Source: the human T2T-CHM13v2.0 reference genome, Homo sapiens. Taken from it: a DNA stretch of 64,000 nucleotides. The stretch lies in the NCBI RefSeq assembly GCF_009914755.1, contig NC_060942.1. One strand, 5' to 3'. Position 1 is the first letter of the stretch, and each line of letters begins with the position of its first letter. Below the pieces are notes generated by a model, which worked only from the letters and a program-made list of their open reading frames with translations, ran no database searches and had not been told where the DNA came from. This document shows, piece by piece, positions 23,548 to 27,457 of this stretch. Position numbers and translations under genes: made by a program.

Positions 23548-23735
23548 ATTTGGATCCTGCTTTCACCATTTATCTGCTCTTTGGTCTTGGATGACTGATT
23601 GAACCTGTTACTATCTCAGTTTCTTCAACTATAAAATGGGAATAATCTCTTGGAGTTGTCGTGAGGATTAAATAAAGTAATACAAGTAAAGCTTTTGGTG
23701 CCTGGCCCACTGTAAATCCTCAAACAGTATTAATT
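23548..23735 (+). mobile_element. MIR SINE (target of the L1 insertion)
   Basis: CTCAGTTTCTTCAACTATAAAATGGGAATAAT...GTGAGGATTAAAT...GTGCCTGGC. Confidence 0.85.
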
Positions 23736-24311
23736 TTTATTTTTTAGTGTTGAACAAATTTAATAATGAAAATAATATAGCTTTACTGGGTATTGTTACA
23801 TTTTCATTGTGGTGTAACAATGTTCAAGGATTACATCTTTATTTCCATCATATGGCACTGCCTATTTTTCAGTAATATACCCAGGCTCATGTGCAGCTGG
23901 TAGACCCAGGACAGACACACCAGTTGTTGGGCAGTGCCCATGATATACTGTTATTAAATATGTTGAAATACCTCTGAATATACCATTTCTTAGAAATTTT
24001 TTTTTTAAGACAGGGTCTCACTCCAGCCCCCTGGGATGGGGTGCAGTGGGGCCTTCATAGCTTACTTCAGCCTCGAAGATATCCTCCCTCCTCAACCTCC
24101 CAAGTAGTTGGGAGTACAGTTGCATGCCACTACATCTGGTTAACTTCTAAAATTTTTTTGGAGAAACAGGATCTTGCTATGTTGCCCAGGTTAGTCTCAA
24201 ACTCCCAGCCTCAAATGATTCCCACACTCGGCTCCCAAAGTTCTAGGATTATAGGCATGAGCCACCACACTTGGCCCCAGAAATTATTCTTTTTTTAAAA
24301 AAAATTCATTC
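23736..24311 (-). other. L1 3'-transduced sequence with distal poly(A)
   Basis: Lies between the L1 poly(A) remnant and the left TSD; minus-strand ATTAAA at 23759-23764, T tract at 23734-23745. Confidence 0.85.
23999..24276 (-). mobile_element. AluJ (diverged), carried within the transduced segment
   Basis: Dimer on minus strand; short TSD AGAAATT at 23992-23998 and 24279-24285. Confidence 0.9.
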
Positions 24312-26564
24312 TTTTTTTTATTTTTTTATTATTATTTTACTTTAAGTTTTAGGGTACATGTGCACAATGTGCAGGTTAGTTACTTATGTATACATGTGCC
24401 ATGCTGGTGTGCTGCACCCATTAACTCATCATTTAGCATTAGGTATATCTCCTAATGCTATCCCTCCCCCCTCCCCGCACCCCACAACAGTCCCCAGAGT
24501 GTGATGTTCCCCTTCCTGTGTCCATGTGTTCTCATTGTTCAATTCCCATCTATGAGTGAGAACATGTGGTATTTGGTTTTTTGTCCTTGTGATAGTTTAC
24601 TGAGAATGATGATTTCCAATTTCATCCATGTCCCTACAAAGGACATGAACTCATCATTTTTTATGGCTGCATAGTATTCCATGGTGTATATGTGCCACAT
24701 TTTCTTAATCCAGTCTATCATTGTTGGACATTTGGCTTGGTTCCAAGTCTTTGCTATTGGGAATAGTGCCACAATAAACATACGTGTGCATGTGTCTTTA
24801 TAGCAGCATGATTTATAGTCATTTGGGTATATACCCAGTAATGAGATGGCTGGGTCAAATGGTATTTCTAGTTCTAGATCCCTGAGGTATCGCCACACTG
24901 ACTTCCACAATGGTTGAACTAGTTTACAGTCCCACCAACAATGTAAAAGTGTTCCTATTTCTCCACATCCTCTCCAGCACCTGTTTTTTCCTGACTTTTT
25001 AATGATTGCCATTCTAACTGGTGTGAGATGGTATCTCATTGTGGTTTTGATTTGCATTTCTCTGATGGCCAGTGATGATGAGCATTTTTTCATGTGTCTT
25101 TTGGCTGCATAAATGTCTTCTTTTGAGAAGTGTCTGTTCATATCCTTTGCCCACTTTTTGATGGGGTTGTTTGTCTTTTTCTTGTAAATTTGTTTGAGTT
25201 CATTGTAGATTCTGGATATTAGCCCTTTGTCAGATGAGTAGGTTGCAAAAATCTTCTCCCATTTTGTAGGTTGCCTGTTCACTCTGATGGTAGTTTCTTT
25301 TGCTGTGCAGAAGCTCTTTAGTTTAAGTAGATTGCATTTGTCAATTTTGGCTTTTGTTGCCATTGCTTTTGGTGTTTTAGACATGAAGTCCTTGCCCATG
25401 CCTATGTCCTGAATGGTAATGCCTAGGTTTTCTTCTAGGGTTTTTATGGTTTTAGGTCTAACGTTTAAGTCTTTAATCCATCTTGAATTAATTTTTGTAT
25501 AAGGTGTCAGGAAGGGATCCAGTTTCAGCTTTCCACATATGACTAGCCAGTTTTCCCAGCACCATTTATTAAATAGTGAATCCTTTCCCCATTTCTTGTT
25601 TTTCTCAGGTTTGTCAAAGATCAGATAGTTGTAGATATGCGGCGTTATTTCTGAGGGCTCTATTCTGTTCCATTGATCTATATCTGTTTTGGTACCAGTA
25701 CCATGCTGTTTTGGTTGCTGTGGCCTTGTAGTATAGTTTGAAGTCAGGTAGCGTGATGCCTCCAGCTTTGTTCTTTTGGTTTAGGATTGACTTGACAATG
25801 AGGGCTCTTTTTTGGTTCCATATGAACTTTAAAGTAGTTTTTTCCAATTCTGTGAAGAAAGGCATTGGTAGCTTGATGGGGATGGCATTGAATCTGTAAA
25901 TTACCTTGGGCAGTATGGCCATTTTCATGATATTGATTCTTCCTACCCATGAGCATGGAATGTTCTTCCGTTTGTTTGTATCCTCTTTTATTTCCTTGAG
26001 CAGTGGTTTGTAGTTCCCCTTGAAGAGGTCCTTCACGTCCCTTGTAAGCTGGATTCCTAAGTATTTTATTCTCTTTGAAGCAATTGTGAATGGGAGTTCA
26101 CTCATGATTTGGCTGTCTGTTTGTCTGTTATTGGTGTATAAGAATGCTTGTGATTTTTGTACATTGATTTTGTATCCTGAGACTTTGCTGAAGTTGCTTA
26201 TCAGCTTAAGGAGATTTTGGGCTGAGACGATGGGGTTTTCTAGATATAAAATCATGTCATCTGCAAACAGGGACAATTTGACTTCCTCTTTTCCTAATTG
26301 AATACCCTTTATTTCCTTCTCCTGCCTAATTGCCCTGGCCAGAACTTCCAACACTATGTTGAATAGGAGTGGTGAGAGAGGGCATCCCTGTCTTGTGCCA
26401 TTTTCAAAGGGAATGCTTCCAGTTTTTGCCCATTCAGTATGATATTGGCTGTGGGTCTGTCATAGATAGCTCTTATTATTTTTAGATACGTCCCATCAAT
26501 ACCTAATTTATTGAGAGTTTTTAGCATGAAGTGTTGTTGAATTTTGTCAAAGGCCTTTTCTGCA
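24312..26564 (-). mobile_element. L1PA3-like LINE-1, 3' 2.25 kb (ORF2 RT/C-terminal region + 3'UTR), frameshifted
   Basis: ORFs 25614-26354 (contains LFADDMI) and 24539-25399 ([18 protein letters not shown]) are ORF2p; 3'UTR GTAACTAACCTGCACATTGTG...CCCTAAAACTTAAAG suggests L1PA3. Confidence 0.97.
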
Positions 26565-27059
26565 AAAAGACAGCAGTAACCTCTGCAGACTTAAATGTCC
26601 CTGTCTGACAGCTTTGAAGAGAGCAGTGGTTCTCCCAGCACACAGCTGGAGATCTGAGAACGGGCAGACTGCCTCCTCAAGTGGGTCCCGAACCCCTGAC
26701 CCCTGAGCAGCCTAACTGGGAGGCACCCCCCAGTAGGGGCAGACTGACACCTCACATGGCCGGGTACTCCTCTGAGACAAAAGTTCCAGAGGAACGATCA
26801 GACAGCAGCATTCACGGCTCATGAAAATCTGCGGTTCTGCAGACACCGCTGCTGATACCCAGGCAAACAGGGTCTGGAGTGGACCTCTAGCAAACTCCAA
26901 CAGACCTGCAGCTGAGGGTCCTGTCTGTTAAAAGGAAAACTAGCAAACAGAAAGGACATCCACACCAAAAACCCATCTTTATATTACCGTCATCAAAGAC
27001 CAAAAGTAGATAAAACCACAAAGATGGGGAAAAAACAGAGCAGAAAAACTGGAAGCTCT
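26563..27059 (+). mobile_element. Inverted L1 5'UTR 3' half and ORF1 start
   Basis: CAAAAAGACAGCAGTAACCTCTGCAGAC... to ATGGGGAAAAAACAGAGCAGAAAAACTGG (ORF1 ATG at 27024), opposite in orientation to the adjacent ORF2 segment. Confidence 0.96.
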
Positions 27060-27457
27060 CAAACAGTATTAATTGAAATCATGACTGTTATTTCACTCCA
27101 AAAGAGAAGATTTAAAAGTCGTAAAGACCTTGACAAAGAAAAACTCTGCTGTTTGAGGAGGTGAGTAGGCAGTGGCCTGGGTAGACACTGCCTTTCTAAC
27201 TATCACCACAAAGCAAGCTCCTCTTTCACCATAGGAATAAGGGCTATTAGGAACAAAGGTATGTATCAGCTCCATTTCTCATCCATTTAATTTAAAGTAG
27301 CTTGCATCTACCTTAGGGTCCAGGGTACACAGCAAGGAGCGACACAGAAAATTGAAGAGCTTGTTCATTTCCTTTGCCTCTATTCCACCATGGTTGCTCT
27401 GCTCCCAGGTCCCCAGACTCTCCCATGTTCTCATGTCTCATTCAACGTCTGACTGTA

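What the first reader, a model, noticed from the sequence alone, without database searches (positions are those of the whole stretch)
23719..27074. L1 insertion carrying a ~570-bp 3' transduction, revealed by a displaced 17-bp TSD
Seen: CTCAAACAGTATTAATT occurs exactly at 23719-23735 and 27058-27074. No TSD sits beside the L1's own poly(A) at ~24312. Between that poly(A) and the left repeat copy are ~570 bp of non-L1 DNA (unique sequence, a possible short MITE and an old AluJ). On the minus strand this ends in ATTAAA (23759-23764) and, ~14 nt later, a second A tract (23734-23745) abutting the TSD. Established: L1 read-through to a downstream poly(A) signal produces this two-tail architecture. 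Inference: 23746-24311 was copied from a source L1 locus elsewhere, so the AluJ is a passenger. Repeat annotation alone would miss this.
Basis: partly seen in the sequence, partly recalled or inferred. Interest (0 to 1): 0.8.

Follow-up and report, generated by a model that had tools for sequence, protein, structure and literature searches.

The report
L1 insertion carrying chr1 flank DNA
This is one old L1 jumping-gene insertion that brought about 550 bases of chromosome 1 DNA, including an older Alu, to chromosome 18 and was partly flipped as it inserted; it is a clear but ordinary example of known L1 behaviour.

Summary
CTCAAACAGTATTAATT occurs exactly twice in the window (23719-23735 and 27058-27074; 0 of 100 shuffles reached two matches). 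It brackets one 3,322-bp insert.

Read on the minus strand, the insert contains:
- an inverted L1 piece (5'UTR to ORF1 start)
- a sense L1 piece (ORF2 RT domain to the 3' end, with its A-rich tail)
- 20 nt of unknown origin
- 547 bp of non-L1 DNA ending 13-14 nt after ATTAAA
- a 10-nt A tract and the second repeat copy

The 547 bp have exactly one paralog in this genome, at chr1:226.53 Mb (18 mismatches, no gaps). The chr1 copy runs on past the cleavage point into T/GT-rich DNA with no A tract, so chr1 is the donor and the copy went through polyadenylated RNA. The AluJ-like element was a passenger.

The source L1 is missing. chr1 in this assembly is an empty site. Homology starts at a good L1 endonuclease motif (TCTT/AAAG on the bottom strand), and no young L1 lies within 20 kb upstream.

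Verdict: a real partnered 3' transduction with a 5' inversion. Both mechanisms are well known, so interest is low. Primate orthologs could not be examined.

The parts
23719..23735 (-). Target-site duplication, copy at the 3' side of the insert in L1 sense. The first-strand primer end ...TTAATT-3' lies on the + strand, and the nick site in the empty target reads AATT/GAAA.
   Evidence: Exact 17-mer pair, 0 of 100 shuffles; sequence read.
23736..23745 (-). Terminal A tract (AAAAAATAAA on the minus strand). This is the remnant of the poly(A) added after cleavage of the read-through RNA. Base 23745 could be either template or tail.
   Evidence: the chr1 copy has TTTGTTTTTG... here instead of A's.
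23745..24291 (-). Transduced segment of 547 bp copied from chr1:226.53 Mb. It comprises 12 nt of flank, an old Alu, and about 250 bp of unique DNA with the poly(A) site.
   Evidence: a single paralog in the genome, with 18 mismatches, 0 gaps and 96.7% identity.
23759..23764 (-). ATTAAA poly(A) signal used by the read-through transcript. Cleavage falls 13-14 nt downstream. On chr1 the site is followed by a T/GT-rich stretch.
23997..24277 (-). Old Alu (AluJ-like by recalled diagnostic motifs) with a 10-nt A tail, carried as a passenger.
   Evidence: It is present in the chr1 paralog with the same flanks. It is 72-79% identical to the neighbouring Alus on chr1. The subfamily name rests on recall, not on a tool.
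24292..24311 (-). 20 nt of unknown origin between the L1 tail and the chr1 homology: a 15-nt tag GAATGAATTTTTTTT plus AAAAA.
   Evidence: Searches show the homology boundary. Searches found no source. (D5) shows it is 88% like the adjacent start of the chr1-derived segment.
24312..24338 (-). The L1's own A-rich tail, with AATAAA motifs inside it.
   Evidence: aligned to the 3' end of a full-length L1.
24339..26564 (-). Non-inverted L1 block: ORF2 from the RT domain through the 3'UTR. It corresponds to about positions 3910-6143 of a 6.15-kb full-length copy and is 95.7% identical to that copy. The reading frame is broken.
   Evidence: BLAST against L027; Pfam RVT_1, E 1.8e-21, on 25614-26459 minus strand; ORF2 split between frames.
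26563..27057 (+). Inverted L1 block: 5'UTR to the first ~30 nt of ORF1, about positions 577-1071 of the same full-length copy, 95.8% identical. Its 3'-most L1 coordinate abuts the TSD. It overlaps the sense block by 2 nt (TG).
27058..27074 (-). Target-site duplication, copy at the 5' side of the insert in L1 sense. Its first bases (CTC.AAA) also resemble the L1 sequence at the internal priming point.
   Evidence: (D1).

Best explanation
A single L1 retrotransposition event, old enough that the two copies now differ by 3.3%, placed 3,322 bp between two copies of a 15-17-bp target-site duplication.

The template was an L1 transcript that ran past the element's own weak poly(A) signal into flanking chr1 DNA. 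It was cleaved 13-14 nt after an ATTAAA about 550 nt downstream and polyadenylated there. This is a partnered 3' transduction, and an old Alu rode along.

Reverse transcription was primed on that new tail from the nicked + strand (...TTAATT-3') and reached only the RT region of ORF2. The other target strand (...TGTTTGAG-3') annealed by microhomology to the start of ORF1 on the same RNA and primed a second cDNA into the 5'UTR. This is twin priming. The two cDNA ends were joined at a 2-nt microhomology. The result is an inverted 5' block, with about 2.8 kb of L1 (about 1072-3909) never copied.

The source L1 most likely sat at CCTTT^AAGAAT on chr1 as an allele that was never fixed, so only the empty site survives in this genome.

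Shown here: the TSD, the block order and orientations, the chr1 paralog, and the homology boundaries. Inferred: the read-through, the lost source L1, and the order of priming events.
For: - TSD: an exact 17-mer pair brackets the whole composite, and there is no alternative TSD next to the L1's own tail.
- Three A tracts lie in a row on the minus strand: the L1 tail, A5-7 after the tag, and the terminal A tract.
- The 250-bp unique query has 2 of 2 candidates scored in the genome: itself and chr1. Homology is 547 bp, with 18 mismatches and 0 gaps.
- The 3' boundary lies 13-14 nt after ATTAAA. The window has an A tract where chr1 continues with T/GT-rich DNA. This gives the direction chr1 to chr18 through RNA.
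- The 5' boundary on chr1 reads TCTT/AAAG on the bottom strand, close to the L1 endonuclease consensus TTTT/AA (the consensus is as listed in PMC12016303, Table 1 passage).
- Both L1 blocks are equally diverged from one full-length copy (95.7% and 95.8%). The inverted block has its 3'-most coordinate at the TSD, as twin priming predicts.
- Microhomology is present at both junctions.
- Both features are common. 5' inversions occur in 18.4% of germline and 21.9% of somatic L1 insertions (PMC12016303, passages and section 8). About 25% of insertions carry a transduction (PMC13009371, passages).
Against: - No L1 is next to the chr1 paralog. Within 20 kb upstream there is only an old fragment 76-86% identical, about 7.8 kb away.
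- 20 nt between the L1 tail and the chr1 homology match nothing at chr1, so the junction is not the simple 'tail then source flank' of a one-step transduction.
- The gap of about 2.8 kb between the two L1 blocks is large. In 132 of 287 inverted insertions the two cDNAs lie within 20 bp of each other (PMC12016303, section 8). The size distribution of the other 155 was not given in the text I read.
- The chr18 nick site AATT/GAAA is only a loose match to the endonuclease consensus.
- No ortholog from another primate could be examined.
Confidence: 0.8

Rival explanations
1. A chimeric retrocopy made by template switching or RNA ligation. Reverse transcription started on the poly(A) tail of an independent chr1 transcript that used the same ATTAAA site. 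It then jumped to the poly(A) tail of an L1 RNA, or the two RNAs were ligated beforehand. No L1 ever sat on chr1.
For: The chr1 site carries no L1. There are 20 unexplained nucleotides at the junction; short untemplated stretches at chimera junctions are reported in PMC13174262 (passages). Template switching and RNA ligation are accepted routes to L1 chimeras (PMC13174262, passages).
Against: In the chimeras catalogued in that paper, the foreign RNA sits 5' of a 3' L1 part, not 3' of a complete L1 tail. The chr1 boundary coincides with an endonuclease-type motif, which this model does not predict. No transcript start is known at that point, though I had no annotation for chr1. Pol III transcription of the Alu does not fit: the segment starts 12 nt before the Alu and runs past a TTTT in the unique part to the ATTAAA site.
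Confidence: 0.1
2. A spliced read-through. The source L1 lay further upstream on chr1. Its read-through transcript was spliced from a donor just after ...TTTTTTTTAAAAAAAG into a cryptic acceptor CTTCTGCCTTTAAG|AATAATT. The 20 nt would then be the first flank bases of that distant L1.
For: On chr1 the homology starts right after a pyrimidine-rich run followed by AAG. This model explains the 20 nt without invoking a second generation of transduction.
Against: The 24-mer spanning the tag has no match on chr1 with up to 1 mismatch; the only other matches are on chr2 and chr14, at the level of the control. Nothing like the tag lies within 20 kb upstream, even allowing up to 4 errors. No young L1 lies within 20 kb upstream. 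AAG is a weak acceptor, a statement I make from recall.
Confidence: 0.06
3. Two or more independent events: a separate retrocopy of the chr1 RNA and a separate L1 insertion, or a later inversion and deletion, that happen to lie side by side.
For: None specific. Nested and adjacent insertions are common in L1-rich DNA.
Against: Only one TSD pair exists, and it brackets the whole composite. No direct repeat flanks the L1 alone or the 547 bp alone. The inverted block (L1 577-1071) has no 3' end or tail of its own, so it could not have inserted by itself. A later rearrangement would need both an inversion and a 2.8-kb deletion while leaving the TSD intact.
Confidence: 0.03

Closest known systems
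Partnered L1 3' transduction (read-through of the L1 poly(A) signal; first described by Moran 1999, Goodier 2000 and Pickeral 2000, which I recall but did not read here; described in PMC13009371 and bioRxiv 10.1101/2021.07.12.451456, passages read)
   Same: The layout is L1 3' end with its own tail, then unique DNA, then a second poly(A) 13-14 nt after a signal hexamer. One TSD surrounds the whole. A single paralog elsewhere continues past the cleavage site.
   Different: The donor site on chr1 has no L1 in this assembly. 20 nt at the junction are not from chr1. This may mark an earlier, very short transduction; transductions under 100 bp are the majority in PMC13009371 (248 of 349).
Twin-priming 5' inversion of L1 (Ostertag and Kazazian 2001: cited in PMC12016303, the paper itself not held)
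   Same: The 5' block is inverted inside the same TSD pair. Its 3'-most L1 coordinate lies at the TSD. Microhomology is present at the internal priming point and at the inversion junction.
   Different: The two blocks lie about 2.8 kb apart in L1 coordinates. In 46% of the cases in PMC12016303 they lie within 20 bp of each other.
[quoted passage not shown]
   Same: This is a truncated reference L1 whose transduced tag points to a source element that the reference lacks.
   Different: The proxy elements concern currently active human L1s. This event is old (3.3% divergence between copies), so the source was probably lost long ago.
L1 chimeras with other RNAs (U6/L1, mRNA/L1; PMC13174262)
   Same: L1 and non-L1 sequence lie in the same orientation within one TSD pair.
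   Different: In those chimeras the foreign part is 5' of the L1. Here it is 3' of a complete L1 tail and ends at its own poly(A) site.

Membership tests
L1 3' transduction | L1 3' end with its own A-rich tail, followed by non-L1 DNA that ends in a second A tract | tested here: met
   tail at 24312-24338, non-L1 DNA at 23746-24311, A tract at 23736-23745.
L1 3' transduction | The target-site duplication brackets L1 plus the extra DNA, not the L1 alone | tested here: met
   exact 17-mer pair, 0 of 100 shuffles; no other flanking direct repeat.
L1 3' transduction | The extra DNA has a donor copy elsewhere that continues beyond a poly(A) signal and cleavage site | tested here: met
   chr1:226.53 Mb, 547 bp, 96.7% identical. 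The window turns to A's 13-14 nt after ATTAAA, while chr1 continues T/GT-rich.
L1 3' transduction | The donor copy lies directly downstream of a source L1 in the same orientation | tested here: inconclusive
   No L1 sits at the chr1 boundary or, as a young copy, within 20 kb upstream in this one haploid assembly. The boundary is an endonuclease-type site (TCTT/AAAG). A lost, unfixed source allele cannot be told from 'never there' with these tools.
L1 3' transduction | The whole composite is absent as one piece from the orthologous site of an outgroup | not testable with these tools
   No primate genomes are held. The genome search offers only the window's own assembly and prokaryotes.
Twin-priming 5' inversion | The 5' L1 block is in opposite orientation to the 3' block within one TSD pair | tested here: met
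   27057..26563 is sense on the + strand (L1 about 577-1071), and 26564..24339 is sense on the minus strand (L1 about 3910-6143).
Twin-priming 5' inversion | The end of the inverted block next to the TSD is its 3'-most L1 coordinate, with complementarity between the target end and the L1 RNA | tested here: met
   L1 1071 abuts the TSD. The target end ...GAG-3' matches L1 CTC exactly, and the match extends to 8 of 9 with one gap.
Twin-priming 5' inversion | The two blocks are nearly contiguous in L1 coordinates (small deletion or duplication) | tested here: not met
   About 2.8 kb is missing. This is typical of the family but not defining: only 132 of 287 cases lie within 20 bp (PMC12016303).
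Template-switch / ligation L1 chimera | Foreign RNA joined 5' of a 3' L1 part, same orientation, one TSD | tested here: not met
   The foreign part lies 3' of a complete L1 tail. The family layout is as described in PMC13174262.

The most novel reading that the evidence does not exclude
The insert may record three generations of one L1 lineage. A grandparent locus contributed the 15-nt tag GAATGAATTTTTTTT, through cleavage about 20 nt after an AATAAA inside the L1's own tail. A parent then inserted at CCTTT^AAGAAT on chr1. The chr18 copy is the offspring. Both ancestors were lost before fixation, so this dead copy would be the only surviving trace of them. A bolder variant is that the 20 nt are a mini-exon, and this is a spliced 3' transduction.
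Probability: 0.35. Interest if true: 0.25.

Novelty: new member of a known kind. Interest (0 to 1): 0.15.

Why it matters
It matters little beyond annotation. It is a clean worked example of how a displaced TSD exposes a 3' transduction that repeat masking splits into unrelated pieces (two L1 fragments and an Alu). It assigns 547 bp of chr18 to a chr1 origin. It shows that the Alu did not insert here by itself, so it should not be counted as an independent Alu insertion when dating or counting. It also points to an extinct source L1 allele on chr1. No gene or annotated regulatory element overlaps the insert, according to the hub's annotation line in the finding.

Tried and rejected
1. Source of the 20-nt junction.
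- A 24-mer with up to 1 mismatch gave only chr2 and chr14 hits, at the level of the control (3 matches against 5 for the control).
- An exact 18-mer gave 7 other sites, none following an L1 3' end; the reversed-pattern control gave 11.
- L1 end plus a gap plus the tag gave one chr21 hit. There the tag lies 14 nt beyond the tail and diverges after 11 nt, so I judged it chance. The reversed control for this pattern (0 hits) is not a fair control, because it does not share L1's abundance.
- Nothing was found within 20 kb upstream on chr1 with up to 4 errors.
- If the grandparent L1 was also lost, any of the 7 sites could be its empty site. This cannot be settled here.

2. Young source L1 near the chr1 paralog: none in 20 kb upstream or 10 kb downstream.

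3. MITE in 23746-23990: only one AT-rich 17-nt inverted repeat, 88% complementary, and it is also present in the chr1 copy. I did not pursue it.

4. Pol III Alu retrocopy: rejected, because the copied segment starts 12 nt before the Alu and runs past a TTTT to a Pol II-type poly(A) site.

5. DNA-level duplication or gene conversion from chr1: rejected, because the boundary lies at a cleavage site followed by an A tract.

7. The twin-priming paper was not held. Neither was the published T2T repeat paper with its transduction table. The preprint's supplements are closed, so I cannot say whether this event is already listed there. The preprint text reports 183 highest-confidence L1 3' transductions in CHM13 and 7 transduced loci on chr18.

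8. The L1 subfamily was not assigned with a tool, and I built no consensus.
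Full report
**Observation.** CTCAAACAGTATTAATT occurs at 23719-23735 and 27058-27074 and nowhere else in the window, even allowing 2 mismatches. None of 100 dinucleotide-preserving shuffles gave two matches. It is the top direct repeat in 23600-27200, and nothing links the DNA beside the L1's own tail to the other side of the L1. On the minus strand, ATTAAA sits at 23764..23759. 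Thirteen nucleotides follow, and then the A tract AAAAAATAAA (23745..23736) abuts the repeat. The L1 3' end with an A-rich tail ends at 24312.

**Anatomy.** Reading the minus strand from 27074 down to 23719, the order is:
- the TSD
- an L1 block in antisense (27057..26563)
- an L1 block in sense (26564..24339)
- the L1 tail (24338..24312)
- 20 nt (24311..24292: GAATGAATTTTTTTT plus AAAAA)
- 547 bp of non-L1 DNA (24291..23745), which holds an old Alu (about 24277..23997)
- the A tract
- the TSD

I fetched a full-length L1 from the same genome (L027, L1 start at base 338, a copy of about 6.15 kb) and used it as a ruler.
- The antisense block corresponds to about L1 577-1071, from the 5'UTR to the first ~30 nt of ORF1, at 95.8% identity.
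- The sense block corresponds to about L1 3910-6143 at 95.7% identity. A second full-length copy (L028) gave the same picture.
- Pfam finds the C-terminal part of RVT_1 in the sense block (E 1.8e-21). ORF2 is split between frames.
- About 2.8 kb of L1 (about 1072-3909) is absent.
- The two blocks overlap by 2 nt (TG), which both L1 sequences share at that point.
- At the TSD junction the target end ...GAG-3' matches L1 CTC exactly. With one gap the match extends to 8 of 9 positions.
- The repeat finder extends the similarity between the target and the L1 piece to 27 nt at 85% (D1).

**The extra DNA comes from chr1.** A search of the window's own genome with the unique 250 bp (23746-23995) found two places, both scored: the window itself and chr1:226533423-226533672 at 98% identity. 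BLAST and MAFFT extend the homology to 23745-24291, which is 547 bp with 18 mismatches, 3 of them in a CpG context, and no gaps.

The two boundaries are informative.
- *At the 3' end,* both copies read ...ATTAAATTTGTTCAACACTA. The window then has the A tract and the TSD, while chr1 continues TTTGTTTTTGTTTTTTTTTTTCAC. This is what cleavage and polyadenylation of a chr1 transcript would leave. It sets the direction chr1 to chr18 through RNA.
- *At the 5' end,* homology begins at AAGAATAATTTCTG, 12 nt before the Alu. On chr1 this is preceded by CCTTT, so the bottom strand reads TCTT/AAAG, close to the L1 endonuclease preference.

The Alu has the same flanks on chr1, so it was already there and travelled as a passenger. 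chr1 shows no tail and no flanking repeat around the segment, so it is the ancestral copy.

**What is missing.** The chr1 site has no L1 beside it. In 20 kb upstream the only L1 is a fragment 76-86% identical, about 7.8 kb away. The 10 kb downstream hold no L1 match. Read-through from an L1 at that spot is therefore an inference. The usual reason for this pattern is that the source allele never reached fixation. A recent long-read study describes reference L1s whose transduced tag comes from a source absent from the reference (PMC13009371, discussion passage).

**The 20 unexplained nucleotides.** These do not match chr1. Four searches failed to find a source:
- The 24-mer with up to 1 mismatch gave chance-level hits on chr2 and chr14.
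- The exact 18-mer gave 7 other sites, none after an L1 3' end, against 11 for the reversed control.
- An L1-end/gap/tag pattern gave one chr21 site, where the tag sits 14 nt past the tail and diverges after 11 nt.
- Nothing was found in 20 kb upstream on chr1.

I see two readings.
- The 15-nt tag may be a very short transduction from a grandparent locus. An AATAAA lies inside the L1 tail about 20 nt upstream of the end of the tag, and transductions under 100 bp are the majority in long-read data (248 of 349, PMC13009371).
- It may be a local duplication. It is 88% like the first 16 nt of the chr1-derived segment including the A run (D5).

A third reading is a spliced read-through into the pyrimidine-rich ...CTTCTGCCTTTAAG| acceptor-like site on chr1. 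This fits the boundary, but it lacks any donor on chr1.

**Mechanism.** The simplest account is one target-primed reverse transcription event on a read-through L1 RNA.
1. The + strand nick (AATT/GAAA, a loose endonuclease site) primed on the new tail. It copied the chr1 segment, the L1 tail and the L1 back to about 3910.
2. The second strand's 3' end annealed at the ORF1 start and primed a second cDNA back to about 577.
3. The two ends were joined at TG.

This is twin priming. The TSD-proximal end of the inverted block is its 3'-most coordinate, as that model requires. The inverted block has no tail of its own, so it cannot be a separate insertion.

5' inversions occur in 18.4% of germline and 21.9% of somatic L1 insertions. 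In 132 of 287 of them the two cDNAs lie within 20 bp of each other in L1 coordinates (PMC12016303, Table 1 passage and section 8). A 2.8-kb gap is therefore on the large side, though the text I read does not give the tail of that distribution.

**Age.** The 3.3% divergence between the chr1 and chr18 copies (18 of 547) is about the human-orangutan level, using genome divergence figures I recall rather than computed. I did not assign the subfamily with a tool. The two TSD copies are still identical, which is not surprising for 17 nt at this divergence.

**Rivals.**
- *Template-switch or ligation chimera with an independent chr1 transcript.* The evidence does not exclude this. It would explain the empty site and the extra junction bases. 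But the chimeras described in PMC13174262 carry the foreign RNA 5' of the L1, and the model does not predict an endonuclease motif at the chr1 boundary.
- *Separate insertions or later rearrangement.* These need extra events and leave the single TSD pair unexplained.

**Comparison with what is known and verdict.** Both 3' transduction and twin priming are textbook L1 behaviour, and their co-occurrence is expected from their frequencies. The T2T repeat study ran a modified TSDfinder over CHM13 and reports 183 highest-confidence L1 3' transductions and 7 transduced loci on chr18 (bioRxiv 10.1101/2021.07.12.451456, passages).

I add the 5' inversion with a large internal gap, the identified chr1 donor (an empty site), and the unexplained 20-nt junction. 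It is a new instance of a known kind, and of low general interest.

Noticed in passing
window 23709-23718 versus 27048-27057: The 10 nt of target DNA just outside the left TSD copy (ACTGTAAATC) resemble the L1 ORF1-start bases next to the right TSD copy (ACTGGAAGCT), matching at 6 of 10. This stretches the repeat to 27 nt at 85% (D1). It may be chance, or the target may have had extended similarity to the L1 RNA at the internal priming point.
   Followed up: partly
window 24281-24296 versus 24303-24318: An A run plus GAAT(G)AATT occurs twice, 22 nt apart, at 88% identity (D5). One copy is at the start of the chr1-derived segment and the other is in the unexplained tag after the L1 tail.
   Followed up: partly
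window 23750-23766 and 23951-23967: A 17-nt AT-rich inverted repeat, 88% complementary, with arms 184 nt apart. It lies inside the segment shared with chr1. Nothing else supports a transposon.
   Followed up: partly
L006 1589-2264 (chr1:226524688-226525363): An old L1 ORF2/3'UTR fragment in the same orientation, 76-86% identical to the window's L1, about 7.8 kb upstream of the chr1 donor segment. It is too diverged to be the source.
   Followed up: no
L030 1500-1560 (chr21:39306302-39306358): A younger-looking L1 3' end whose flank holds AAGAATGAATTTT 14 nt past the tail. It diverges from the window's tag straight afterwards, so I judged it coincidental.
   Followed up: yes
L027 6499-6671 and 3-337 (chr1:171.67 Mb): The full-length L1 used as a ruler is itself nested in an older L1. 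Sequence on both sides of it matches the window's ORF2 3' region at 84-88%.
   Followed up: no
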